A stretch of 64,000 nucleotides of DNA from Mustelus asterias (Eukaryota), in contig NC_135821.1 in the NCBI RefSeq assembly GCF_964213995.1, forward strand, positions 52,514,001 to 52,578,000, read 5' to 3'. Both the position numbers and the translations under genes were made by a program. Positions within the stretch are counted from its first letter, which is position 1, and each line of letters starts with the position of its first letter. The notes beneath the pieces were generated by a model, which saw only the letters and a list, made by a program, of their open reading frames with translations, made no database searches and was not told the DNA's origin. Shown here piece after piece: positions 1-55,955 of this stretch.

Positions 1-1656
1 ATCTAACTACAGGTTTTACCCTTCCAGGCACAGAAACATTAAATTAAACCCATTTAAAACTATACCTTATTTCTAACGTTTACCAAGTCACATATAAATC
101 CCTTAAAACTACTTTTGCTTTTCTAACAGCACAGAAGGAGGTCATTTGGCCAATTATGTCTTTGCCAGCTCTCCATAGGAGCAACTTACCTAGTGCCACT
201 GCCTGGTCAATTCCAACATTTAATGTTCCAACATTTAAGGTGAAGTGGTTGGGTGATCCCCATTGCTCAAATCAACTTGAGTAAAAATGATTCTAAAATG
301 CTTAATTTGCAAACTAATTTATCCTAAACAATATCTCAAAAAAGTTTATATCATGCAGTAGCAAGCTTACGTTAGGGAGCTCAATTTAGCTTTGCAGGAA
401 CATTATAATTTTAATTGAAACAAAATCTCTTCTACATCAAACAGGTTAACAATTTTAAAATACTACTGGCATGCTTTGATATCTTTTGGCCATTTTTCAA
501 TAGAAAGGATTTAAGGAGTTACTTCAAGTGGTGCATTTTAAATTATGGTACTATCATGAAAATTAAAAGGAATCTGAGATGATAGGTAGTTAAGATGTAC
601 TAGCTTTGATGTTGTTTTCTCAAGATTGGAAATAATGTACAATTAGTTGACTTGACTTTGTATTGTATTGATAAACATCATTTTATCATGCAGTGCTGGT
701 TCCAGGCACTTAGCAAGAAGTCCAGTAGGCCTTCCCTTATTTGGCTGTGAATAGACAGAGACAAATAAGGGACAGACACAGCCAGAAAGCTCTTTGAAAC
801 AGGAAGGCTGCAAAGGCAAGTTAGGTTTCTTAAACAGAGAACTGCAGAGAGTTTTGCTGAAGCAAAAAACTTAGATTCCCCAACCTTTCAAATCTGTCCT
901 CATTACCCACTCATAAAAATATTCACCCTTGCCCACCATTCATTTTCGACCTCCTTTTCCTTTCCCAGGCTCTTCATTGAGCATGTTGTCACCTCCCAAA
1001 TCTGCTTTTCTTTCCCATGCCTCCATGCATGAACTTTTCCAATTAGATTTCCACCATTACAACATTGACCCCAATCAAAATCACAAATAGCATCCTCTGT
1101 GACTGTGACCATGATACATTAATCCCTCCTCCAACTGGTTCCACTCTTATTCAGTCATGGCAAGTGCATCATCTGCAAAGCCTTCTCTTCCTGCATCAGT
1201 AACTCTAGGGATTTATCCTTGGCCTCCACAGATTTTCATCTACATACTGCCCCTCACCATTATCATGCAAAGACAAGGTATTAGGTTCCACATTTACACT
1301 GACAACACCCACCAGCACCACTTCTTTTGACCCCTTCCACTGCCGCTGCATTGTCAGACTACTTATGATATCTCCAGTCTTAGATGGGCTGAAATTTCCT
1401 CCAATTAACCATTGGGAAGACCAAATCCATTGCTTTTTGTACCCACCAGAAACTTCATTCAATCATCACTGATTCCATCCCCTTCCCTGACCATCTTTCC
1501 TTCCTCCTTTAAGGTTTTCCTTAACACCTACTTCTTTGACCAAACTTTTAATCACCTGCACTAATATCTCCTTCTTTGGCTTGGTGTCAGTTTTCTCTGA
1601 TTAGGTTCCTGTGGGATGTTTTACTACATTACTACACACTTGAATCCAAGTTGTTT

Positions 1657-11213: not shown

Positions 11214-12925
11214 TGTGGAGTTTGCCCATTCTCTCCATGTCTGCGTGGGTTTCCTACGGGTGCACCAGTTTCCTCCCACATCCGAAGATGTGCGGGTTAG
11301 GTGGATTGGCCATGCTAAATTGCCCCTTAGTGTCAGGGGGATTAGCAGGGTTTATGGAGACAGGTAGGGTAGGATTGTTGTCGGTGCAGACTCGATGGGC
11401 TGAATGGCCTCTTTCTGTACTGTAGGGATTCTATGATTCCATGAAATTAAATACAGATGAGGAAGACCATTTGCCCTACCTTACATCATCTCAGCAGAAG
11501 GTTCCCATGGTCCCTCCATTCTGTACATAATTGCTGCTTAAATATTTCCGGTATTTTGCTTCTACCATTCCATCTGGCATTCCCATTAGAAATTGTGATT
11601 ATTGTTTGTTTGACCTTTGTCCTACATTTAAGATGTGATTTATATTGAATTTTGTTTCCAGATTTAAAATTTTCCATATCACATCCTCACATCCTATCTA
11701 ATCTATTTCTGTAACATTGTCAGAGCTGTCTCCTCAAAGATGCTAAAACCCAAGTTTCCCTCTTCTTTCCTCACAACTCAAACCTTTGACACCAAGATCC
11801 GCCTTTTGCCTTCAGGACTTGAATCCAGCTGGCTCAAAGACCAGCTTGTACACAATATTCAGAATGTGGTTTACCAGAGAGCTGTACAATCACAGCATAA
11901 CTTCCTCTGCTTGCACCCTACTGGTTTGACTTGTTGTTCAGCATTCAGCTTGTTCTTTGACCCAGTGCTGCATTGGTCAGGTAGTAAATCTATTATACAT
12001 GTCTTTCAACATCATCCTTCCCTCCATCACATTAATGGAGAATATCTGTCATTCATTCTCTTTCATTGCACAGTTCTTCACACTTTTATATAACAAACTT
12101 AATCTGCCCACTTATTTAGTTGGGAAATTTTGTATTTCATAAACATAAAATTTCCCAACTGCATGTAAAATGGATCCAGCTTAAATTTTATGTTTCACCA
12201 CATCTGCCACTAAGAATGCATATTGGGAAATTGCACATCTCCAACTGGTAATTTTTCTTCCATGTACTTTGGATGTACAGTTTCCTGATATGCAGTCATA
12301 GTATACTCAGTTAGGTGAAGGGGACTTCCAAAATAGAATTTTACCTATGCCTTTGTACATATAAAGATTAGTGACTTCAGTTCAGATCTTTTCTATGCTT
12401 GACTAAACATCTTGCGGCTTTTGAAATTGGCCAACATAAATGTAGCCTTTCAATAGCCTGACAATAATCAATCCATGATAAACATCCAGTTAGCAAGGCA
12501 AAAAATAAATGCTCCTTTTCTGTCTGGTGCAACTGAAGTAAATGCTAAATATCACAACTCAATATAAGTTGACTGTTAAGATATTTTAGATAGTTAACTG
12601 ATAGTGAACAATCTGTATTATTATGAATCTTAACTCTTTTTCAGCATTTTCTGTCGAAAGTTGTAGTCCTTTTCTCAAAAATAGAAACTTGTGGAACAAT
12701 AGAATTTAACTTTTTAACTATTCACGTATCCAAGTGTGTAATTTTAATATTCAATAAAATCTTAATTTTGATTCACAAGGATTTCATTTCAGAAAAAATG
12801 CAAGGTGTGGTTTACTTCAACTTATTTAAAAATGGTTGTTATAAGGGGTGGAATTGTGAAATACAGATAAAATTAAAATTATTAAATTTATACTTTCAGA
12901 TTGGATTGCGTCAGTAAAACACACA

Positions 12926-14112
12926 ATGGCACCAAAGAAGAAAAACACCAAGAAAAACAAGATTGAAAAGAATGAATTACCAAAAATAAGCATTGTTGAG
13001 GACACAACCATCGACATTGATCAGCTAAACCATCTGAACACTCTCTATGATAGTGGATCAAATGGGTTTCGATGCACAGCCTCAGAAGTCTCCAATCCCA
13101 ATCATGGTGCCTTTCTCTTGGAGGAAATCAGCAGGATGCGCCAGGAGAGACTCTTCTCCGATCTCACACTATCCACTAAGAACAAATCCTTTGATGTCCA
13201 TAAAGTGGTGATGGCTGCTTGTAGCGATTATTTCCGTAACATGTTGAAGAAAGATCCATCCATTCACTGTGTAGATGTTAATGATGCGTCACCTTTGGGT
13301 TTGACCACTGCCTTAACCTATGCCTACACAGGGACACTCAGCTTGTCTCTTTATACCATTGGATGCACCATTGCCACTGCCACCCAATTCCAAATGTCTA
13401 CTTTGATTAACATATGCACCGACTTCCTCATTCAAGAAATTAACGTGGAAAATTGCATGTATATCTCGAACATCGCTGGGACATATGGGCTGAACCAGGT
13501 TAAAGAGTCAGCAAAGAAATTCATCCGTGAAAATTTCTTGGAGTTTTCAGAAAATGATCAATTCATGAAGCTGACTTACGATCAAATAAGTGATTTGTTA
13601 ATGGATGACAGCCTACAACTGCCCTCTGAGCTCACTGCATTCCAAATTGCTATGAAGTGGTTGCATTTTGACCCGAAAAGGGTGAAGCATGCAGCTGATC
13701 TGTTGAGTAATATCAGATTTGGCACCATTTCAGCTCATGATCTAGTCAGTTATGTTCAACCTATCCCATGTATGATGCAAGATCCAGATTGCCATCGGCT
13801 CCTAGTTAATGCCATGAACTACCATCTCCTGCCTCATCAACAGAACTCAATGCAGTCTAGAAGAACAAAGCTCAGGGGAGGACAGAAGGTCCTGCTGACT
13901 GTAGGTGGTCGACCAGCTTTGACTGAGAGGGCTTTGAGCAGAGAAATCTTATACAGAGATCCTGAAAATGGATGGAACAAACTTGCAGAAATGCCAGCCA
14001 AAAGCTTCAATCAATGTGTAGTCGTGATGGATGGCTTTTTATACGTGGCTGGTGGCGAGGATCAGAATGATGCCCGAAACCAAGCTAAGCATGCCGTCAG
14101 CAGTTTAAACAG
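12926..14112 (+). CDS. Kelch-like protein 31-like (possibly the klhl43 paralog), coding exon 1 (BTB, BACK, start of Kelch repeats)
   Basis: ORF MAPKKK...[12 protein letters not shown]...[17 protein letters not shown] closely matches recalled KLHL31. Acceptor tttcag ends at 12899, upstream of the ATG. Donor AG|gtaac at 14112, phase 2. Confidence 0.93.
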
Positions 14113-15304
14113 GTAACATAGACCAATTGTTCTGTGGGATGTGCTGGTATATAATGACTTCAAACACAGAAAAAATAGCTGTGTGAACAATCCAAGGTCT
14201 ATTTTTTTATCAGGGATATGTCCTAGTTTTTACAATAAAATGACTTGAATTTAACTTGAATTTATTTAGTGACTTTCGTGTCCTCAGGACATTCCAAAAT
14301 GCTTCACAGCCAATGTAGTACTTTTGAAGCATAGTCACTGTTGTGATATGGTAAAATATTGCAGCCAATTTCTTGCACAATAAGATTCCATCAACAGCAT
14401 TGAGATAAGTGATTAGATGATCTGTTGTTGGTCATATCACATCAGGTTTTAGTGTCAAGACCCTGTGGGTGATAAAATGTTCAAATCCTTTCTTTATATC
14501 TCTGAAACCTTATTTTATCCAAAGTGGTCATATTCCTAGATGACCATTAGCTGTTCTCCCTTTCTGAGGGAGAGAGCTGACTGGTGGCAACTTAATCTAA
14601 GGATCAGCACATCTCAGGTAAGGGGCGAGGTTGAGAAGGCAGGCCTTCATGAATAACCTCACCAGTATGGGAATTGAACCTGCACTTTTGGCAACATTCT
14701 GCATCATAAACCAGCTGTCTAGCCAATTGAGCTAAACCAATCCCCTTTCATCTACAATTCAGACAAATGAGATCACAGTCCCTATTTCTGTTAGGTGATT
14801 TCTAGCGCTTTGTGACAATGCTTTGGAATTTGGATCTGATTGAAGGCAAAAAGATAGCACTGCTACTCCTTGATAAGTGTTTCAGGTGAAGCCAGTTCAA
14901 GATGTCTCAGTTCAAGGAGCATGAGAGCCCATCCAAACTTATCTGTCTTGGTTGTGTGAACTTTCTTTGTTTCCAATCAGGCTACTATATAATGTTCCAC
15001 ATAGAGGCCAGATGAGGGACTGGTGACATTCACAGTTGAATCAGTCTTGACAAACTAGCATCCTCTTGCTTCCAGCAGGTATGATGTCATTATTAATTAT
15101 TCATGATGCAGAGCATCCCATTCCCTAGCTAAATTTAAATGTACAATGATGAGTATGGGCATAAAATTGGCACATGTAAACTTTTTCCAAGTGGTATCTT
15201 TTTACCATTCCCCCTTCCCCTACAGCTGCTGTATTGTATGAATCATACACGCTGACCAATTTCCATTAACTTTCCAAGTGATCATACTTCATGTCAGCCT
15301 AGGT

Positions 15305-16049
15305 CAGGCTTGTCCAGAGTATGACTTGCAAAGTTCGTGTATGCAGCCCCCGGAGCAGGTTTTCCAAATGCCAGTCAAATAAATAAATTTGAATGGAAGG
15401 TTTTGCATGGAGCTGCTCCTCCAATCACAGGCCATTTATCTCCCACTTTTGCTGCGAATAAGCTTACTAGTGAGCTGATCAGCAGAAAATATGGGGCAGA
15501 AAAAGTCTGTGATTTGAGAAGCAGTGCCAGGAAGCATGGCCCAGGGAGCAAAGGTGCCAGTGAGCAGAGGTACTAGGTCATGTGGACCTGGAAGCAGACG
15601 TGCCAGGTCATGTGTACCAGGGAGCAGAGGTGCCGGGTCATGTGTACCAGGGAGCAGGGGTACCAGGTAATGTGTACCAGGGAGCAGGGATACCGGGTCA
15701 TGTGTACCACAGGGCAGAGGTCCTGGGCAGCATGGCCCAGGGAGTGGAGGAGCTGGGGAGCATGGCCCAGGGAGTGGGGGTGCAGGAGAACATGGCCCAT
15801 GGAGCAGAGGTACTGGGGAGCAGGGCCCAGGGAGCAAAGGTGCTGGGGAGCAGGGCCCAGGGAGTGAAGGTGCCGGGGAGTGCAACCAGGAGGGGCTGAG
15901 GAGTGTGGTACAGGGAGCAGAGGCATTGCAGAGCTTGGCTCAGTTGTCCAGAGCTAGTCCCAGGTGGGATGGAATGGGACCGGAGGCATCCAAAGTGGGA
16001 AAAATTTTGATATGTGGCCCTCGCCACATGAAAAGGTTCGATAAGCCTG
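15305..16049. mobile_element. hAT-like non-autonomous element carrying a 30-bp minisatellite
   Basis: Termini caggcttgtcca / tcgataagcctg with subterminal gcagccc/ggccc; left flank gcctaggt resembles a Charlie target site. Confidence 0.45.
15530..15925. repeat. 30-bp-unit minisatellite
   Basis: About 13 degenerate copies of ccagggagcagaggtgccgggtcatgtgta / ccagggagtggaggagctggggagcatggc. Confidence 0.9.
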
Positions 16050-17364
16050 GCTTGGTCAGTGAATTTGTAGAAATTGGACCATGTAGGGTATTCAATTCTG
16101 GTACTTGATATCCAGCTGGGTCAGAAGCAGGAAATCTGGCTAATTGTGCTCACTGGGGCTCCAGGAGAACTGAGCCAACTGTAGAACCTCAATGGGCACA
16201 ATCGGGCTCCATCAAAACATATTACTAGTGAGCAGAAAAATAATTGTATCTTTTGTTATGCTGAACATTGTCAAAGATTGAAACGTTCAGCAGTTGAGGG
16301 CAGGCCCATCTGAAATCAAATCACTTTAAGTTTTAACTCACTGGCTCACAGGTTACATTATTCTCACAGCACTTTGCTATTCTTGCATAACAAATAGCTC
16401 CTGAGGCATAGCAGGAGCCACAACTGAATTCATCTGTACATGTATGCATCTTTTTGATTAAAAGAGATAATAATATATCTAGGATAATTGAATAACCATT
16501 CCGTCATTGTGTAAGTACTGTTGAATGGGTGATAGAATTGGAGTGAGTTTTTTTAATGCTACATAAGAACAGACAATTTCTTAAACAGTTATAGAGCTGA
16601 AAAAAATCAGACTTGAATATGGATTTTTATGTAATGGGGAAGAATGATAGTGGAGGCTTGATATTAAAACAACACTGGTTATTAAAAATGTGTCCATTGT
16701 ATCAAAGTAATTTTTAAGTCTTTTAAAATATTCAAAAAAAAATGTGGCGGTCATTGGGAGAAAGTTTCTAGACTGATCAAGATTATCCAAATATTTTAAG
16801 TTTAGTAGTTGTTACTATTTTACAATGCCATACCTAGATTTGTTCACTTACACGTGCTCCTCTTAAATAATGAGTTTCTTTCAAATATAGCACATCACAA
16901 GTGTGATACTCTCTCATTATGGTTATGTTACTAAGTACAGCAAACACCTGCATTTGTCTGTTACACACAATTTGGGTTGTATTTATGTTAGATTAAAAAT
17001 CTGATGGAACAATGAAAAAATGCAGAATTGGGATTAATCTGTGCCTTTCAAATCCTCAGGACGTCCCAAAGAACTTCATTATTGACTGAAGGAAACTCAG
17101 GCCTTTCAAGTCTTTTGGGGATTTTTGAAAAGTTCCTAAATATCTCAAAAATTTCCTGCTACCCTATTGCAATCCATTGGGACACAATCTTGTGCTTTTG
17201 TGAGAAATGAATTCAGTCTGAGTATCTCTTTTTATTAAAAAATGTTATTTAAGAGTTAATATAGACAGGTTCATTTTACAGTATTATAAACTTCAATCTA
17301 ATAATTCACCCATCATCGAGAAGCAGTAGACTCCAGGGGAGCAGGAACTTTCAGTTTTGGGGTT

Positions 17365-17665
17365 TCATGGTAGCACAGTGGTTAGCACTGCTCTTTCACA
17401 GTGACCCAAGTCGGGTTCGGTTCCCAGCTTGGGTCACTGTCTGTGTGGAGTCTGCACGTTCTCTGTGTTTGTGTGGGTTTCCTCCAGGTGCTCCAGTTTC
17501 CTCCCACAGTTCGAAAAGACGTGCTGGTTAGGTACATTGGCCATGCTAAATTCTCCCTCAGTGTACTCAAACAGGCACCGCCGGACTGTGGCAACTAGGG
17601 GATTTTCACAGTAACTTCATTGCAGTGTTAATGTAAGCCTACTTGTGACACTAATAAATAAACTT
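17365..17665 (+). mobile_element. tRNA-derived SINE (HE1-like)
   Basis: ggtagcacagtggttagcactg...gggttcggttcc...tgtgtggagtctgcacgttctc. Confidence 0.85.
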
Positions 17666-18782
17666 AAATTTAATATTCGCAAGGATTTTGTTTGCAAAAA
17701 TTGAAATTGAGATGGAAACAATAATTTGTGAACTAATAAAAATCTTGATTCTCACTGAAGTTGTGTTATACATATAACTGTGGTTCTTAACCAGGTTGAT
17801 TCAATTGGTAGCATCCCTCTGGGTCAAAAGGTATGTGAGTTTGTACTTCAGTCCTGATTTGAACACAGGCTTTGGCTCCACTGCAGAACTTAAGGAGTGC
17901 TACAATATTGGAGGTGCCATCTTTCAGGTAGATGTTAAAGATCCCATGGTGTTATTTCAGAATGAAAGGAACTTCTCTCTGGTCTCCTGGCCAACATTTA
18001 TACTTCAATCAACACAAAAAAAACAGATAATGTGGTTATTTTCATATTGCCATTCTTGTGACCTTGCTGTGCACAGTTTAGTTGCTGCATTCCTTCCAAG
18101 AGTAACTTCACTTCTAAAGTTCTTAATTGGTCATGTTGAGCTTTTGGTCATCTTGAGATTATAAAGGCACTATATAAAGCTAAGGATTTCTCCAGAGATA
18201 TGACAAAGCACAGTATAATGTCAACGTTTTCATAATCACTAAAAGGTCTTACTCACTTTAAATTCTCGGTTGCATTCCATGATAATTTCAAAAGTAATAT
18301 TTTTCCAATTAGAAACCTGAGTGAAGAGGCAAGTCCCTTAGTGTGAGACATCATTCGAGTTGTAAGGAGTAATAAAGTAAAAGGGAAGACTTACATTTCT
18401 ACAGCACTTTTCATGACCTTAGCATCTCCCAAAATATTTTACAGCCAATGAAATACTTTTGTGACATGTGGTCACTGGTCTAATATAGGACAGGAAACAT
18501 CAGATAAATTAAGTGGTAATTAGGTTATAACAGAAAATCTCCTTGATTTTCCATTGATGTCGTGTCTGGGACTAACTGATAAGAGATCAATTGCTATGAT
18601 AGTCAACAACTCCATTGTCTTTGTATAATGCAACTACCAGAGCGGCAGAACAGATGAACCCTTGTCTTTGTCGTGTAGCAATTCTCATGTAAAATGCAAA
18701 TCTTATGAAATGATGAAGTTGTCACCTTGATGTGGTATTTTCGAAACTGAAAGATATATATTTCAAAAATGGTGTTTTTCAG

Positions 18783-19515
18783 ATATGATCCTCGTTTCAA
18801 CACTTGGTTTCATTTGGCCAGTATGCTCCAGAGGCGAACCCACTTCAGCATGTGCACTTACAACGGTCTTATTTTCGCCATCGGAGGTCGGAATCCAGAA
18901 GGTCCTCTCGCATCCATGGAATGTTACATCCCCTCCACTAATCAGTGGCAATTGAAGGCTCGGATGGAGGTTGCACGCTGTTGCCATGCTTCTGCACTCA
19001 GTGACGGCAAGATCCTGGTAACTGGCGGCTATATCAACAATGGCTATTCTCGCACAGTGTGTGCCTATGATCCTACGATAGACACTTGGAAAGACCATGT
19101 CAGTTTGAGTACCCCCAGAGGCTGGCATTGTGCAGTCACCTTTGGTGACTATAGCTACGTGATGGGCGGCAGTCAGCTTGGGCCGCAAGGTGAGCGAGTC
19201 GATGTGATAACAGTTGAACGCTACAATGCTTACACTGGCCAATGGAACTACGTGGCTCCTCTAGCCATCGGTGTAAGTACAGCTGGTGCAACAACCCTGA
19301 ATGACAGAATCTATTTGGTTGGAGGTTGGAATGAAAGTGCAAAGAAGTACAAGAGCTGCATCCAGGCCTACAATCCAGATCTGAATGAATGGACTGAGGA
19401 GGATGAGCTGCCGGAGGCTACAGTGGGCGTCTCGTGCTGCGCCATTATGTTACCAAACAACAAACTTCGGGAGTCCAGAGCCAGCTCAGTGGCATCTGCA
19501 GCAATCAGTATCTAA
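18783..19515 (+). CDS. Kelch-like protein 31-like, last coding exon (Kelch repeats)
   Basis: Acceptor tttttcag|A TAT GAT CCT matches phase 2. YDPRFNTW...[15 protein letters not shown] resembles the KLHL31 C-terminus. Joined CDS is 1920 nt = 639 aa + stop. Confidence 0.93.
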
Positions 19516-41540: not shown

Positions 41541-42533
41541 GTAAGAAGTTTAACAACACCAGGTTAAAGTCCAACAGGTTTATTTGGTAGCAAAAGCCAC
41601 ACAAGCTTTCGAGGCTCTGAGCCCCTTCTTCAGGTGAGTGGGAATTCTGTTCACAAACAGAACTTATAAAGACACAGACTCAATTTACATGAATAATGGT
41701 TGGAATGCGAATACTTACAACTAATCCAGTCTTTAAGAAACAAAACAATGGGAGTGGAGAGAGCATCAAGACAGGTTAAAAAGATGTGTATTGTCTCCAG
41801 ACAAGACAGCCAGTGAAACTCTGCAGGTCCACGCAACTGTGGGAGTTACAAATAGTGTGACATAAACCCAATATCCCGGTTGAGGCCGTCCGCGTGTGTG
41901 CGGAACTTGGCTATCAGTTTCTGCTCAGCGACTCTGCGCTGTCGTGTGTCGCGAAGGCCGCCTTGGAGAACGCTTACCCGAATATCAGAGGCCGAATGCC
42001 CGTGACTGCTGAAGTGCTCCCCAACAGGAAGAGAACAGTCTTGCCTGGTGATTGTCGAGCGGTGTTCATTCATCCGTTGTCGCAGTGTCTGCATAGTTTC
42101 CCCAATGTACCATGCCTCAGGACATCCTTTCTTGCAGCGTATCAGGTAGACAACGTTGGCCGAGTTGCAAGAGTATGTACCGTGTACCTGGTGGATGGTG
42201 TTCTCACGTGAGATGATGGCATCTGTGTCGATGATCCAGCACGTCTTGCAGAGGTTGCTGTGGCAGGGTTGTGTGGTGTCTTGGTCACTGTTCTCCTGAA
42301 GGCTGGGTAGTTTGCTGCGGACAATGGTCTGTTTGAGGTTGTGCGGTTGTTTGAAGGCAAGAAGTGGGGGTGTGGGGATGGCCTTGGCGAGATGTTCGTC
42401 TTCATCAATGACATGTTGAAGGCTCCGGAGGAGATGCCGTAGCTTCTCCGCTCCGGGGAAGTACTGGACAACGAAGGGTACTCTGTCCACCGTGTCCCGT
42501 TACCCCAGTCCAACGCCGGCATCTCCACATCAT
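41541..42533 (-). mobile_element. Truncated Penelope-like element with intact GIY-YIG segment and inverted terminus
   Basis: ORF 41846-42490 (NVVYLIRC..C...WYIGET...R..EH...GLN). TSD atgttgtcaaag on both sides. Inserted into a LINE remnant. Confidence 0.9.
41600..41636 (-). ncRNA. Minimal hammerhead ribozyme-like motif
   Basis: cac-CTGAAGA-A-GGGGCT cag AGCCTC-GAAA-GC-TT-gtg. Confidence 0.65.
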
Positions 42534-42980
42534 GTTGTCAAAGGCCATAGCCTTTGTGGCATCCAATGCCTTTAACCATTTCTTGATATCACTTAGAGTG
42601 AATAGAATTGGCTGAAGACTGGCATCTGTGATGCTGGGACCTCAGGAGGAGGCCATGATGGATCATCCACTCAGCACTTCAATCTGATGATTGTTGCAAA
42701 TGCTTATCTTTTGCAATAATATGCTGAACTCCCTCATCATTGAGGATGGGGATATTTATGGAGCTTCCTCCTCCAGTGAGTTGTTTGATTGTCCACCACC
42801 ATTCAGGACTGCAGACCTTAGATCTGATCCATTGTTTGTGGAATCACTTAGCTCTGTCTATCACTTGCTGTCTATGCTGTTTGACATGCAAGTAGTCCTG
42901 TGATGTAGTTTCACCAGTTTGACACCTCATTTTTAGATATGCCTGATGTTGCTCCTGGCATGCCCTCTGGCACTCTTCTT

Positions 42981-47615: not shown

Positions 47616-47759
47616 AGAAAATAAAATCTACCTATTACTTAGCTGGACTAGTTTGCTTACATAGCAGCTGTAATCCACTGTATGTGAAATGCTTTGGGGC
47701 ATTTCTGAGTAATGTGATGATGTGCTTTTAAATGTTTTTTGATTTTTATCTTTCTGTTA

Positions 47760-47765
47760 TTTATT
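47760..47765 (-). promoter_or_regulatory. Candidate poly(A) signal of the cGAS-like gene
   Basis: AATAAA on the minus strand ~240 nt after the stop codon. Confidence 0.4.
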
Positions 47766-48001
47766 CCTGCTCTACTTCTCTTTCTTTCCATGGTAAATAA
47801 TTAGAATATTGGACAAGAAAAGTAACCCATCATGAATCATCATCTTGAAGAAAGGAAAAATATGGGGAGAGAAGAAAAAGATTTACTGGAAGGCAATAGC
47901 ATTTAAAAAAATTAAAACACAGGTCTGATAGTCGGAGTGAATCCCATGCAGCATCATAATGTGAGTAGTTCATCAAAGCCAACACATCACTAACAAGGTA
48001 T

Positions 48002-48455
48002 TTAAAAGGTTTTGACAAAAAATACAAGGATTAATAAGATCATAGAAAATGCTGCTAGTTTAACTAATAGGTTCTGACTCTGAGGTACAAGTGCTTCCTG
48101 CTGGTGTTCCTCGGGAGGTGCAAATGCCGGAATTTGATTTGCTTTTTGCTCCTTTAGGATCTTCAACAGGAATTTTAAATTCTTTGGTGCAAAATGCGTG
48201 GAGTCAAATAAATTGCAGGTAGCCACGAAGAAGTGTTTTAGCTCTGCCTTTTCTACGTGTTCAATGAAATCATCTAGGAAATTGAGAAAGCATATGTCCA
48301 CCTTGGAGGCAGACCATTGGTCATCTTTGGGTCTTCGGACCATTGAATGGAAATAAGCAGTCTTTACACAATAGGAGTTGAGTTTAGATAGCTCCTTTGG
48401 GTACTGTTCTTTCAGGACATGAACAAGATACTTCATGAGTCTGAGACAGCTTTTC
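48002..48455 (-). CDS. cGAS-like, last exon (Mab-21 helical lobe plus hydrophobic C-terminal extension)
   Basis: ctccag|G KSCLRLMKYL...SYCVKTAYFH...W...CF...HFFVATCNLF...IPAF, then APPEEHQQEALVPQSQNLLVKLAAFSMILLILVFFVKTF*. The four exons join in frame (1056 nt). Confidence 0.93.
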
Positions 48456-49547
48456 CTGGAGGAAAGAAATAGGACAGACGAAAAATAATAAATTCAGCAC
48501 TTCCACATCTGTGGCACTTGTAGAAAAATACCGCACAATAGATAGAGAAAATAATGAAAATAAATTGGTAATCTAAAATGAAGCGTATTTAAAGTTAGCA
48601 AGTAAGGGCTGAGCATAACTTGGGAAACCTGACATTAAATATTACTTTACAATCTTTTATTTTTCTATATGCACCAGGAAAGCAAACCAAAAATAAAAGC
48701 ATGGGCCATATCATTGTCAAACATATCTTACATTGTTTTCTTTGTTACCGATAAATATGAAAAATAACTGGGGAATGCTAGTAAACTGCAATTAATTTTG
48801 ATGTTCAGCTATACAAGAAAAAGTTTGACCAGAGCATAGGAGTGCTCTAAAATATATGCAGCAATGATGGATCATTGGTTTGCATTACAATTACACAGAC
48901 ACGCACACACATACAGGTTACATTATAGATATAAAACGCAAGTCTTTTCTCAAATCATTTTTATTACACTGTACACCAAATATTGTTTCTGGTGCAACAG
49001 GAAAACAAAAATGGAAGAAAACGATTACATCAGTAGATGCTTATGACCTCTGCTCTTGCTTACGATAGCTTCAGATTCAATTGTCCCAATGCTTTCCTGG
49101 AAGGCTTCATATCTTCCACCCACTGCATACTGCAGCTCATCTCAAGTTCTGCTGCTGATACCCTAATTCGAACCACGTCCCATTAATCCATTACCCCTGT
49201 GCTTGCTGATCTATGCAATGTCCCAAATTTAAAATGTCCATTCTTATGTTGAAATCCCTGGTCCCTCCCCCCCCCCCCCCCCTCTCTGTACGCTGCTCCA
49301 CCCTACAATCCACCAAAAACTCTCTATTGCCCCTTAGTGTCCTAAGATGTGTAGGTTAGATGGATTAGCCATGGTAAATGTGTGGGGTAATGGGGATAGG
49401 TGGGGGAGAGGGCCTGGATGCAACCTTACCGTCAGAGAGAGTCGGTGCAGACTTAATGGGCTGAATGGCCTACTCCTACACTGTAGGGAGTCTATGATTC
49501 TATTCTCCAATTCTGGCTCTCTAGTATACCCTGACTCTCTTTATCCC

Positions 49548-51552: not shown

Positions 51553-51652
51553 CTGCAGCAGCGAACTGCTCCCTTCTCACAGCAGTTCTTCATGGCACCA
51601 TGGTTCATCAATAAACTTTTTTCAACGTGAGAGAAGGAAATACGCCAGGTCT
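51553..51652 (-). CDS. cGAS-like, exon 4 (zinc thumb)
   Basis: ttgcag|[34 protein letters not shown]|gtgaa; H-x5-CC-x6-C zinc ribbon; 100 nt; missing from the ORF track. Confidence 0.93.
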
Positions 51653-51871: not shown

Positions 51872-52144
51872 CTTTCAACTCTTCTGCCAATGCCCTCCTG
51901 CGTGGGTGCTTTGGCACAAAGTAAAATGGCTGATGTTTCAAATCCCCCTTTGTTTTTTTACTGAGCCACTCCTCAATATTCATGCCATCGTCGGTACAAT
52001 TTGGCCACTTCTGAAAAACCTCCAAACCAAGAACAATATCAATGGAAATATTCTGCTTTCTTTCACTGTTCCACAGGAGCAGGGTGACAGCAGGGCTTCC
52101 CTGGGTTTTCCTCTGTAATTTCACACTCCACTTCTTATGGCAAC
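51872..52144 (-). CDS. cGAS-like, exon 3
   Basis: GSPAVTLL...ISIDIVLGLE...WP...WLSKK...PFYFVPKH; D319-equivalent present; 273 nt, phase 1 to phase 1, ag/gt. Confidence 0.93.
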
Positions 52145-53862
52145 CTATTCAACCAGAGGTACACACAGAATAAGCGGATATGATGACAGAACCAGAGCAA
52201 ACTGTTCATTTTGATTAATTTTGCCCACTCTTTTCTTCCCCTTCTTTTCCTGACTCATCGCCCTCCAATGTTTTGCTAAAGGGACCATTCCCCTTACATG
52301 AACGAGGAATATCCTTGTCAACAACCAATTCTATCCTCACCTGATGTCTTAGTACATGATGTGGAGATGCCGGCATTGGACTGGGGTAGGCACAGTAAGA
52401 AGTCTCACAACACCAGGTTAAAGTCCAACAGGTTTATTTGGTAGCATGAACTTTTGGAGTGCTGCTCCTTCATCAGGTGAGTGGAGAGTTGGGTTCACAA
52501 ACAGGGCATATAGAGACACAGACTCAATTGCAAGATAATGTTTGGAATGCGAGTCTTAACAGGTAATCAAGTCATTACAGTTTTAGACAATGCAAGTGGA
52601 GAAAGGGTTAAGCACAGGTTAAAGAAGTATGAATTGTCTCAAGCTAGGAAAGATTTTGCAAGCCTAGGCAAGTCGTGGGGGTTACAGGTAGTGTGACATG
52701 AACCCAAGATCCAAGTTGAGGCCATCCTCATGTGTGCGGAACTTGGCTATCAGTTTCTGCTCGGCGGCAATTCTGCGTTGTCGTGTGTCTTGAAGGCCGC
52801 CTTGGAGAATGCTTACCCGAAGATCGGAGGCTGAATGTCCTCGACTGCTGAAGTGTTCCCCGACAGGAAGAGAACACTCCTGCCTGGTGATTGTCGAGGG
52901 TGTCCATTCATCCGTTGTCATAGCGTCTGCATGGTCTTACCAATGTACCATGCCTCGGGACATCCTTTCCTGCAGCATATCAAGTAGACAACGTTTGCCG
53001 AGTTGCAAAAGTATGTACCGTGTACCTGATGGATGGTGTTCGCACGTGAGACGATGGCATCCGTGTCGATGATCTGGCACATCTTGCGGAGGTTGCTGTG
53101 GCAGGGTTGTTTGGTGTTGTGGTCACTGTTCTCCTGAAGGCTGGGTAGTTTGCTGCGAACAATGGTCTGTTTGAGGTTGCGCGGTTGTTTGAAGGCAAGT
53201 AGTGGGGGTGTGGGGATGGCCTTGGCGAGATATTCATCTTCATCGATGACATGTTGAAGGCTCCGAAGAAGATGTCATAGCCTCTCAGCTCCAGGGAAGC
53301 ACTGGACAATGAAGGGTACTCTGTTCGCCGTGTCCCATGTTTGTCTTCTGAGGAGGTCGGTGCAGTTTTTCACTGTGGCGCATCGGAACTGTCGATCGAT
53401 GAGTCGAGCGTCATATCCTGTTCTTACAAGGGCATCTTTCAGCGTCTGTAGGTGTCTGTTGCGATCCTCCTCACTTGAGCAGATTCTGTGTATACGGAGG
53501 GCTTGTCCATAAGGGATGGCTTCTTTAATGTGTTTAGGATGGAAACTGGAGAAGTACCACTGCAAGAAAGTCCATTGTCAACTTGTCAAACTATACCCTT
53601 CAACCAGATGAAATTGAAGTTCTCAGCTGAGGGCTCAATTTCTGCCCCACCACCAAAATGGATCCCATCAGTCTTGTGGCGGACACAGAGGAATTCATCA
53701 GGCGAATGAAGCTCCGGGTGTTCTTCCGCAAACCCCAAGAGGCCAACAGCGGACCCAATGAGACAGCCAATGAACTGGAACAGCCGACAGATCCGCGGTG
53801 CATAACCAAAGAAGAAAGAGTGGAATTGGACCCCTCCAGAAGGCCGCTGCCCTCGACTCAAC

Positions 53863-55449
53863 ATGTATGCCCAAGCCATCAGGAGATGCGTCAATTCATC
53901 AGCCGCACTCACAAGACAGTCCCGAACGTCACCCAAGCACAACGCAATGCCATCCGCGCTCTCAAGACCAACCCCAACATTGTCATCAAACCAGCAGACA
54001 AAAGGAGGGGTCACCGTCATACTGAACAGAACAGATTACTGCAAAGAGTACCAACAACTGAACAACCAGGAACACTACAGACAGTTACCCGCAGATCCGA
54101 AAAAAGAACACACCCGCCAACTCAACAAACTGATGAAGACATTTGATCCAGACCTTCAGAGCACTCTCCATGCTCTAATCCCACGTACTCCCCGCGTTGG
54201 AGATCTCTACTGCCTCCCGAAGATACACAAGGCCAACACACCCGGCCATCCTATTGTATCAGGCAATGGGACCCTGTGTAAGAACCCCTCCGGCTACGTT
54301 GAGGGCATCCTGAAACCAATTGTACAAAGAACCCCCAGCTTCTGTCGTGACACTACAGACTTCTTACAGAAACTCAGCACCCATGAAGCAGTTGAACCAG
54401 GAACACTCCTCGTCACAATGGATGTCTTGGCACTCTACACCAGGATCCTCCACAACGATGGCATTGCTGCAACTGCCTCAGTACTCAATGCTAACAACTG
54501 CCAATCTCCAGACGCAATTCTACAACTCATCCGCTTCATCCTGGACCACAACATATTCATCTTCAACAATCAGTTCTTCATCCAGACACACGGAACAGTC
54601 ATGGGAACCAAGTTCACACCTCAATGTGCCAACATCTTCATTCACAGGTTCGAACAAGACCTCTTCACCACACAGGACCTTCAACCGACGCTATGCACTA
54701 GATACACCGATGACATTTTCTTCCTTTGGACTCACGGCAAAGAAACACTGAAACAACTACATGATGATATCAACAAGTTCCATTCCACCATCAGACTCAC
54801 CATAGACTACTCTCCAGAATCAGTTGCATTCTTGGACACACGCATCTCCATCAAGGACGGTCAGCTCAGCACTTCACTGTACCACAAGCCCATGGATAAC
54901 CTCACGATGCTCCACTTCTCCAGCTTCCACCTTAAACACGATAAAGAAGCCATCCCCAATGGACAAGCCCTCCGTATACAAAGGATCTGCTCAGATGAGG
55001 AGGATAGCAACAGACACCTGCAGACGCTGAAAGATGTCCTTTTAAGAACAAGATATGGCACTCGACTCATCGATCGACAGTTCCGACGCGCCACAGCAAA
55101 AAACCGCACCGACCTCCTCAGAAGACAAACACGGGACACAGCCAACAGAGTACCCTTTGTCGTCCAATACTTCCCCGGAGAGAAGAAGCTACGACATCTT
55201 CTTCGGAGCCTTCAACATGTCATCGATGAAGACAAACATCTCGCCAAGGCCATCCTCACACCCCCACTACTTGCCTTCAAAGAACCGCACAACCTCAAAC
55301 AGACCATTGTCCGCAGCAAACTACCCAGCCTTCAGGACCACAACACTAGACAATCCTGCCACAGCAACCTCTGCAAGGCATGCCAGATCATCGACACGGA
55401 TGCCATCATCTCACATGAGAACACCATCCATCAGGTACGCAGTACATAG
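53863..55449 (+). pseudogene. Degenerate Penelope reverse transcriptase ORF
   Basis: 528-aa ORF with Penelope-type RT and thumb; frameshifted at the N-terminus and stopped before the GIY-YIG domain. Confidence 0.85.
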
Positions 55450-55955
55450 TCTTGTGACTTGGCCAACATTGTCTACCTGATATGCTGCAGGAAAGGATGT
55501 CCCGAGGCATGGCACATTGGCAAGACCATGCAGACGCTACAACAACGGATGAATGGACACCCTCGACAATCACCAGGCAAGAGTGTTCCCTTCCTGTCGG
55601 GGAACACTTCAGCAGTTGAGGACATTCGGCCTCTGATCTTCGGGTAAGCGGCCTTCAAGACACACGACAATGCAGAATCGCCGAGCAGAAACTGATAGCC
55701 AAGTTCTGCACACATGAGGGTGGCCTCAACCTGGATCTTGGGTTCATGTCACACTACCTGTAACCCCCACGACTTGCCTGGGCTCGCAAAATCTTACTAA
55801 CTGTCCTGGCTTGAGACAATTCACACCTCTTTAACCTGTGCTCAACCCTCTTTCCACTCGCATTGTCTATACCTGTTAAGACTCACATTCCAACCATTAT
55901 CTTGCAATTGAGTCTCTGTCTATATATGCCATGTTTGTGAACCCAACTTTCCACT

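What the first reader, a model, noticed from the sequence alone, without database searches (positions are those of the whole stretch)
48002..48121. cGAS-like protein with a C-terminal transmembrane-like tail: candidate membrane-anchored cGAS
Seen: after IPAF, which aligns with human FPVF (only three residues before the human stop), the frame continues 39 aa: a polar linker APPEEHQQEALVPQSQN, then LLVKLAAFSMILLILVFFVKTF*. This is a ~19-aa hydrophobic stretch flanked by lysines at the extreme C-terminus. Established: canonical vertebrate cGAS is soluble, and the membrane-bound Mab-21-fold relatives I know (e.g. MiD49/51) are anchored at the N-terminus and lack the zinc thumb. Inference: a tail-anchored cGAS on ER, mitochondrial outer membrane or peroxisome with its catalytic domain in the cytosol would be an organelle-localised nucleic-acid sensor that I do not recognise as described.
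Basis: partly seen in the sequence, partly recalled or inferred. Interest (0 to 1): 0.9.

Follow-up and report, generated by a model that had tools for sequence, protein, structure and literature searches.

The report
Membrane-anchored sister copy of cGAS
This shark gene is an ancient second copy of the DNA sensor cGAS; its protein ends in a hydrophobic tail, kept in relatives from sharks and bony fish to crocodile and platypus, that is predicted to anchor it in an internal membrane (likely the ER, beside its partner STING), where it would work as a local rather than a free-floating sensor.

Summary
The tail is real. It is in frame in exon 5 of an intact five-exon gene (P0001, 459 aa), and RNA-like contigs cover it. 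It is not a recent stop loss. The gene is not canonical cGAS: that copy, without a tail, lies on another chromosome. Both copies follow an EEF1A gene in duplicated blocks, so they are likely whole-genome-duplication ohnologs. The window gene belongs to a jawed-vertebrate clade that, by inference, holds teleost cGASb/cGASL. In that clade 129 of 146 proteins end in a linker, one hydrophobic helix and a few residues, against 0 of 24 canonical proteins. Lamprey and amphioxus relatives lack it. The clade mostly lacks the basic N-terminus but keeps the catalytic triad (134 of 137) and zinc thumb (128 of 137). Best reading: a tail-anchored, probably ER-bound, high-threshold cyclic-dinucleotide synthase for nucleic acid near membranes. 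Main rival: a membrane-bound brake on STING; killifish cGASb made no cGAMP, and lizard and platypus copies keep the tail but lose catalytic residues. The clade is known in fish; I found no mention of its anchor, but key primary papers were unavailable. Localisation and activity are untested.

The parts
48002..48455 (-). Exon 5 coding part (residues 309-459 and stop): Mab-21 C-terminal helices, linker and tail
   Evidence: AG acceptor; translation equals P0001; Pfam PF20266 at 308-409; covered by contigs of runs X7 and X1
48071..48121 (-). Polar linker, residues 421-437, between the cGAS fold and the hydrophobic helix
   Evidence: low pLDDT (63-72) at 421-440
48014..48070 (-). Predicted transmembrane helix, residues 438-456 (apolar core 442-456)
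   Evidence: KD19 2.82; helix 435-458 in the model; similar segment in 129 of 146 clade proteins
48002..48013 (-). Three residues after the helix (KTF, net +1) and TAA stop
47760..47765 (-). First AATAAA after the stop; candidate polyadenylation signal (contigs run past it, so use is not shown)
51553..51652 (-). Exon 4: WRISFS motif and zinc thumb (H293, C299, C300, C308)
   Evidence: exon 3-4 joint in a contig of run X2
51872..52144 (-). Exon 3: third catalytic acid D220 and basic DNA-contact residues
60867..61095 (-). Exon 2: catalytic E114 and D116, and R125 and R145 (mouse R222 and R241 positions). Exon 1 lies outside the window at G000:C21:52581898-52582221
12860..19515 (+). Neighbouring BTB-BACK-Kelch gene (KLHL31-like; name recalled); synteny marker with a 66% identical paralogue on C5

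Best explanation
This gene is the shark member of an ancient cGAS sister clade (likely a whole-genome-duplication copy, and likely the clade called cGASb/cGASL in bony fish); its protein keeps a complete cGAS active site and is predicted to be held by one C-terminal helix in the ER membrane, facing the cytosol, where it would make a cyclic dinucleotide only when nucleic acid gathers at that membrane and would pass it to nearby STING. Steps: (1) shown: gene structure, tail, paralogy, conservation of tail and active-site residues; (2) predicted: post-translational tail-anchor insertion with the enzyme in the cytosol; (3) predicted: ER or ER-derived membrane rather than mitochondrion or peroxisome; (4) inferred: a high activation threshold, because the long basic N-terminus and some basic surface residues are missing and the protein is tethered; (5) inferred, untested: local signalling to STING at membrane-proximal nucleic acid, for example viral factories or ruptured micronuclei.
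For: Tail: 129 of 146 clade proteins against 0 of 24 canonical ones. Helix hydrophobicity median 2.52; at most 10 residues after it in 126 of 129; net charge after it 0 or +1 in 116 of 129; no hydrophobic segment in the first 70 aa in any of 146. High hydrophobicity with low tail charge favours the ER (PMC5450235 passages). Paralogy: the two-clade split has 100/100 support and a shark-only duplication is rejected, p-AU 1e-6. Both copies lie just downstream of an EEF1A gene on the same strand; KLHL31-like, KCNQ and GAS2-domain genes also occur on both C21 and C5. Enzyme: triad intact in 134 of 137 and zinc ligands in 128 of 137; fold matches cGAS, target TM-score 0.88-0.95. N-terminus: median 59 aa and net 0 (n=136) against 183.5 aa and +19.5 (n=24); mouse K240 position is Lys in 24 of 24 canonical proteins and mostly non-basic in the clade. 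A review reports STING-dependent signalling by overexpressed zebrafish cGASa/b (PMC7582293 passage).
Against: Full-length N-tagged killifish cGASb gave no measurable 2'3'-cGAMP in HEK293T cells, and the paper cites minimal activity for zebrafish cGASb (PMC13694710 passages). Grass carp cGASb/cGASL are reported to inhibit interferon through STING or MAVS (citing passages and titles). Lizard and platypus members keep the tail but lose catalytic and zinc residues. Ten turtle proteins and the lungfish protein keep the active site but lack the tail, so enzyme and anchor can be separated. A related organism's contig shows A444E at the start of the helix. No dedicated TM predictor was available. No localisation or activity data exist for the shark protein. 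The ER rule was trained on mammalian proteins.
Confidence: 0.5

Rival explanations
1. Membrane-bound brake: the protein is tail-anchored beside STING (or MAVS) and dampens interferon signalling by binding them, or by taking up DNA or canonical cGAS in weak complexes; catalysis is minor.
For: No cGAMP from killifish cGASb. Grass carp cGASb is said to compete with cGASa for STING, and cGASL to bind STING/TBK1 and to degrade MAVS (citing passages and titles). Lizard and platypus copies keep the anchor without the triad or zinc thumb.
Against: The triad is intact in 134 of 137 clade proteins spanning shark, coelacanth, sturgeon, teleost, crocodile and turtle; true pseudo-enzyme branches lost it. 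Tail-less grouper cGAS is reported both as an inhibitor and as an activator, so such cell assays are weak evidence.
Confidence: 0.3
2. The anchor is real and the enzyme active, but it sits on the mitochondrial outer membrane or on peroxisomes and senses released mitochondrial DNA or acts with MAVS.
For: Basic residues follow the helix in shark and coelacanth (+1 to +2). A paper title links grass carp cGASL to MAVS degradation.
Against: Median hydrophobicity 2.52 and charge of +1 or less in 122 of 129 tails; passages of PMC5450235 assign this pattern to the ER and a high positive charge to peroxisomes.
Confidence: 0.13
3. The tail is not a membrane anchor but an amphipathic or degradation signal, or is skipped in the main transcript, and the protein is soluble.
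For: Tail absent from 17 of 146 clade proteins, some of them partial gene models. Tail sequence is poorly conserved between lineages.
Against: Hydrophobicity and terminal position are conserved while the sequence drifts, as expected of an anchor. Contigs of X7 and X1 run through tail, stop and 3' flank without a gap and stop at the splice acceptor.
Confidence: 0.05
4. Recent stop-codon loss or assembly error in this shark's canonical cGAS.
For: None found.
Against: Near-identical tail in Heptranchias; canonical copy present on C5; zero differences over 785 bases in a contig of run X7; tail across jawed vertebrates.
Confidence: 0.01

Closest known systems
Canonical vertebrate cGAS (MB21D1/CGAS; teleost cGASa)
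   Same: Mab-21 fold, GS motif, E/D/D triad, H-C-C-C zinc thumb and nucleosome-anchor arginine R241 position; five matching exon blocks.
   Different: Separate paralogous clade; short neutral N-terminus instead of a long basic one; C-terminal linker and hydrophobic helix; mouse K240 position not Lys. Canonical cGAS reaches the plasma membrane only electrostatically, through its N-terminus (PMC9496985 passages).
Teleost cGASb / cGAS-like (cGASL)
   Same: Zebrafish XP_003200687 and grass carp 'cGAS-like protein' entries fall in the same clade and carry the tail. That these are the literature's cGASb/cGASL is inferred from names, lengths and exclusion; I did not see those papers' sequences.
   Different: The passages I read treat them as fish homologues and do not mention a transmembrane segment (the word is absent from the main text of PMC13694710). 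Here the clade extends to sharks, coelacanth, lungfish, reptiles and platypus.
OAS1 p46 (prenylated isoform)
   Same: A related nucleotidyltransferase sensor sent to endomembranes by its C-terminus, which improves access to viral replication sites (PMC8357416 abstract): the closest working analogy.
   Different: Lipid anchor on a splice isoform, RNA ligand, RNase L output; here a predicted helix on a separate gene.
TREX1
   Same: C-terminal single-pass ER anchor with the enzyme in the cytosol; ER association matters for micronuclear DNA (PMC11373327 passages).
   Different: A DNase that limits cGAS; unrelated fold.
MiD49/51 and ITPRIP-type Mab-21 proteins
   Same: Same cGLR superfamily (PMC10732462 passage); membrane-bound (recalled).
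   Different: N-terminal anchors and no zinc thumb (recalled, not tested); the window protein's closest solved structures are all cGAS.

Membership tests
cGAS family (Mab-21 NTase with zinc thumb) | Mab-21 NTase and C-terminal domains; cGAS fold | tested here: met
   Pfam PF03281 and PF20266; Foldseek top hits all cGAS, E about 1e-33
cGAS family (Mab-21 NTase with zinc thumb) | GS motif and E/D/D catalytic triad | tested here: met
   G101, S102, E114, D116, D220 align to mouse G198, S199, E211, D213, D307 (roles of these residues recalled)
cGAS family (Mab-21 NTase with zinc thumb) | Zinc thumb H-C-C-C | tested here: met
   H293, C299, C300, C308
cGAS family (Mab-21 NTase with zinc thumb) | DNA-activated synthesis of 2'3'-cGAMP | not testable with these tools
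   Killifish cGASb negative in one cell assay; zebrafish cGASb reported weak or active at second hand
Canonical CGAS orthologue | Groups with mammalian and turtle CGAS in the tree | tested here: not met
   P0058 on C5 groups there and P0001 does not. With outgroups, forcing the shark tail genes next to the canonical clade was not formally rejected, p-AU 0.055
Canonical CGAS orthologue | Long basic N-terminal region and soluble C-terminus | tested here: not met
   49 aa, net -1; hydrophobic tail
cGASb/cGASL clade | One clade with the zebrafish and grass carp cGAS-like proteins | tested here: met
cGASb/cGASL clade | Sequence identity of my clade members with the clones named cGASb/cGASL in print | tested here: inconclusive
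   Primary papers not held; inferred from database names and lengths
Tail-anchored proteins | One hydrophobic helix near the C-terminus with a short tail and no signal peptide | tested here: met
   Kyte-Doolittle scan only: 2.82, three residues after, none elsewhere; helix in the model
Tail-anchored proteins | Integral membrane insertion with the N-terminus in the cytosol | not testable with these tools
   Needs fractionation and protease protection
Whole-genome-duplication ohnolog pair | Paralogues in duplicated blocks with several other paralogue pairs; split before sharks and bony fish parted | tested here: met
   EEF1A, KLHL31-like, KCNQ and GAS2-domain genes on both C5 and C21; both clades hold sharks and bony vertebrates. 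Four marker families, one genome; a large segmental duplication is not excluded

The most novel reading that the evidence does not exclude
The ancestor of jawed vertebrates had a two-armed cGAS system: a soluble cGAS and a tail-anchored ohnolog that surveys the ER surface and makes its own cyclic-dinucleotide signal, possibly from another ligand or as another product, for neighbouring STING. The anchored arm survives in some sharks, coelacanth, most bony fish and crocodiles; it split in amniotes into a soluble enzyme (turtles) and an anchored pseudo-enzyme (lizards, platypus), and was lost in birds and therian mammals. The puzzling results on fish cGASb would follow from its overlooked anchor.
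Probability: 0.3. Interest if true: 0.88.

Novelty: new variant of a known kind. Interest (0 to 1): 0.7.

Why it matters
Where cGAS sits in the cell, and how place separates self from foreign DNA, is still debated (PMC9496985 passage). A natural cGAS fixed to a membrane by a helix and kept for the whole history of jawed vertebrates would be a ready-made test of what location does to sensing. It can be tested at once in zebrafish, killifish or carp, which have the gene. It would also reinterpret the fish cGASb/cGASL literature (low activity, binding to STING and MAVS) and correct annotation: NCBI names this paralogue 'cyclic GMP-AMP synthase' and the canonical C5 copy 'cGAS-like'.

Tried and rejected
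Stop loss, assembly error and shark-only duplication: rejected. My first exon borders for exons 2 and 3 were wrong and were corrected. Mouse-residue labels near 333-342 and 420-429 were off by one and were corrected. The careful tree did not finish; the quick tree was used, and a careful tree on 25 rows followed with six long-branch rows left out (three invertebrates, lamprey, platypus, Leptobrachium). The AU test with outgroups did not reject placing the shark tail genes beside the canonical clade (p 0.055). Sequencing runs: no RNA holder listed on record; the RNA nature of X1, X2 and X4 is the tool's guess and X7's kind is unknown; 4 of 10 listed runs were laid; the exon 4-5 joint was not among the rows shown, and many rows were cut. 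Liu 2020 (PMID 32285982) and Xu 2021 (PMID 34403683) were not held; Zhou 2019 and 2021 were not tried. The scan's earlier findings gave nothing. No complex was predicted: no STING sequence was on hand, and a cGAS dimer would pass by likeness to solved structures. No DeepTMHMM or Phobius was available. Supplements were searched only for PMC13694710 (one file not searched); unseen supplements and figures of the fish papers may mark the TM segment.

Full report
OBSERVATION. The minus-strand frame 48493-48002 ends ...IPAF, then 39 residues and TAA. Five exons with GT-AG borders translate exactly to database protein P0001 plus stop: exon 1 outside the window at G000:C21:52581898-52582221, then window 61095-60867, 52144-51872, 51652-51553 and 48455-48002. 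P0001 has 459 aa and is labelled 'cyclic GMP-AMP synthase [Mustelus asterias]'. The 19-residue window 438-456 has mean hydropathy 2.82; nothing in residues 1-420 exceeds 0.66. AlphaFold2 with an 84-sequence alignment gives mean pLDDT 87, a low-confidence linker and a confident helix 435-458. The fold matches solved cGAS, as does the sequence (E about 1e-80).

EXPRESSION. No listed run is on record as RNA. Of four runs laid, a contig of X7 covers 47674-48458 with no difference, a contig of X1 covers 47827-48458 with 13 differences, and one of X2 covers 48036-48454. None of the four covers 48462-49125 in the intron, and an X2 contig joins exon 3 to exon 4. This looks like spliced transcript that includes the tail, but RNA status is a guess, the exon 4-5 joint was not shown, and many rows were cut. 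Among the X1 differences shown are L450I and A444E in the helix region; the second is against my reading.

IT IS A PARALOGUE. Exon 5 has one other match in the genome, on C5. That gene (P0058, 635 aa) ends four residues after the equivalent Phe. Trees of the core without the tail split jawed-vertebrate proteins into two clades, each holding sharks, coelacanth, sturgeon, gar, teleosts and tetrapods (split 100/100, 25 rows, six long-branch rows left out; the quick tree on whole proteins gave the same split). P0058 groups with rodent and turtle cGAS (names). A shark-only duplication is rejected (p-AU 1e-6). With outgroups, forcing the two shark tail genes beside the canonical clade was not formally rejected (p 0.055). 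Synteny: an EEF1A exon lies about 5 kb upstream of the C5 gene and a paralogous exon (84% identical) about 14 kb upstream of the window gene, each on the same strand as its cGAS. A KLHL31-like pair (66% identical; name recalled), KCNQ genes and GAS2-domain genes also occur on both C21 and C5. I infer ohnologs of an early vertebrate genome duplication; this rests on four marker families in one genome.

THE TAIL IS A CLADE TRAIT. I pooled the 170 proteins listed by three searches (5 of 5, best 120 of 420, best 120 of 217). Of these, 146 fall in the window's clade and 24 outside it. A window of 1.6 or more in the last 60 residues occurs in 129 of 146 and 0 of 24. Teleosts dominate the 146, so these are not independent counts; by lineage the tail is seen in two sharks, coelacanth, sturgeon, gar, teleosts, crocodile, softshell turtle and lizards, and a later search added platypus. 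The 17 without it are ten turtle proteins, lungfish, an alligator model with a different end, a sawshark fragment and four teleost models. Among 139 further representatives, three called canonical by BLAST score and one uncalled had a hydrophobic end: a frog gene model, a low-quality gecko model, an unnamed fragment clustering with a cyprinid entry, and P0260. Lamprey, amphioxus and hemichordate relatives have no such tail, so it was probably gained on the stem of the clade. No bird, amphibian or therian member appeared in the listed hits; this is absence from lists, not mapped loss. Few sharks and no rays gave a member; a catshark entry is partial and changes frame.

ANATOMY AND MECHANISM. 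In the 129 tails, hydropathy has median 2.52, the linker median 37 aa, at most 10 residues follow the helix in 126, and their net charge is -1 in 6, 0 in 70, +1 in 46, +2 in 5 and higher in 2. None of 146 has a hydrophobic segment in the first 70 residues. That is the tail-anchor pattern. Passages of PMC5450235 say a hydrophobic helix with low tail charge favours the ER and that peroxisomal tails are highly positive, so the ER, where STING sits, is my prediction. The catalytic triad is intact in 134 of 137 proteins that cover all nine sites tested and the zinc ligands in 128 of 137; mouse R364 and Y421 positions are R in 143 and Y in 145 of 146 (numbering, roles recalled). The nucleosome anchor R241 (role in PMC8365253 passages) is R or K in 140 of 146. 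By contrast the N-terminus is short and neutral (median 59 aa, net 0, 2 of 136 at +10 or more) against long and basic (183.5 aa, +19.5, 24 of 24), and the K240 position is Lys in 24 of 24 canonical proteins but mostly non-basic in the clade; the crocodile protein does have a long basic N-terminus. I infer an enzyme that bulk cytosolic DNA activates poorly and that fires when nucleic acid is concentrated at its membrane. Long retention of the active site is my reason for ranking 'local enzyme' (0.5) above 'brake' (0.3).

RESULTS AGAINST. N-tagged full-length killifish cGASb made no measurable 2'3'-cGAMP in HEK293T cells and did not activate immune genes according to the text, although the legend lists p 0.000988 for IFNb against vector, direction not seen (PMC13694710 passages and supplement passages). 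Grass carp cGASb/cGASL are described as inhibitors acting on STING or MAVS (seen only as citing passages and titles in PMC9945316, PMC11264591 and PMC7582293). In amniotes the clade seems to have split again: one copy keeps the active site (tail in crocodile, lost in turtles), the other keeps the tail and decays (softshell turtle partly; lizards E-E-N/S; platypus E-S-R and no zinc thumb). Anchor and catalysis can therefore each be useful without the other.

COMPARISON AND NOVELTY. It is a member of the cGAS family by fold, triad and zinc thumb, but not the orthologue of mammalian CGAS. It most likely is the clade called cGASb/cGASL in fish. It would work like OAS1 p46 (PMC8357416, abstract only) or TREX1 (PMC11373327 passages) in using the C-terminus to reach membranes. 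Searches of the held library (listings and abstract starts) showed no paper on a tail-anchored cGAS paralogue or on this clade outside teleosts; 'tail-anchored cGAS' and 'transmembrane cGAS' had no occurrence in any of the nine papers listed. Passages of PMC9980059 and PMC10732462, 10.1101/693333 and PMC6981698 do not describe it. The grouper paper found no TM segment, in a 575-aa protein whose length fits the canonical clade. The primary cGASb papers were not held and may note the segment, and automatic database annotation may flag it. Verdict: new variant of a known kind; interest 0.7.

Noticed in passing
P0345, P0289 (platypus), P0125-P0128 (softshell turtle, lizards): An amniote sub-branch keeps the hydrophobic tail but loses catalytic acids and zinc ligands, while a sister turtle copy keeps the active site and loses the tail; the softshell turtle has both kinds.
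   Followed up: partly
G000:C21:52596567-52596821 (locus L004): An EEF1A paralogue lies about 14 kb upstream of the window gene on the same strand, mirroring the EEF1A-cGAS pair on C5; five EEF1A-like exons were found in the genome.
   Followed up: partly
window 12860-19515, + strand: BTB-BACK-Kelch gene, 66% identical to a copy on C5; KLHL31-like by recall, which of the two paralogues it is was not tested.
   Followed up: partly
P0244 (Leptobrachium), P0337 (unnamed, clusters with a cyprinid fragment): Proteins of the canonical clade with a hydrophobic C-terminal extension; could be independent gains or faulty gene models.
   Followed up: no
P0001 and P0058 database names: NCBI calls the tailed paralogue 'cyclic GMP-AMP synthase' and the canonical copy 'cGAS-like', the reverse of their orthology.
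   Followed up: yes
P0315 (catshark), P0003 (sawshark): Other shark members are partial, with a frame change or an early end, and no ray member was listed; the paralogue may be decaying or unannotated in many cartilaginous fish.
   Followed up: partly
window 47674, run X7 record 24: A 1461-base contig matches 47674-48458 exactly; its other 676 bases were not placed in the rows shown.
   Followed up: no
window 41846-42537, 52918-55480: Reverse-transcriptase and endonuclease-like frames of retrotransposons (Penelope-like by recall) lie in introns of the gene and downstream of it; many short repeats fill introns 3 and 4.
   Followed up: no
P0058 residues about 85-250: The canonical shark cGAS has a tandem 13-residue repeat in its basic N-terminus.
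   Followed up: no
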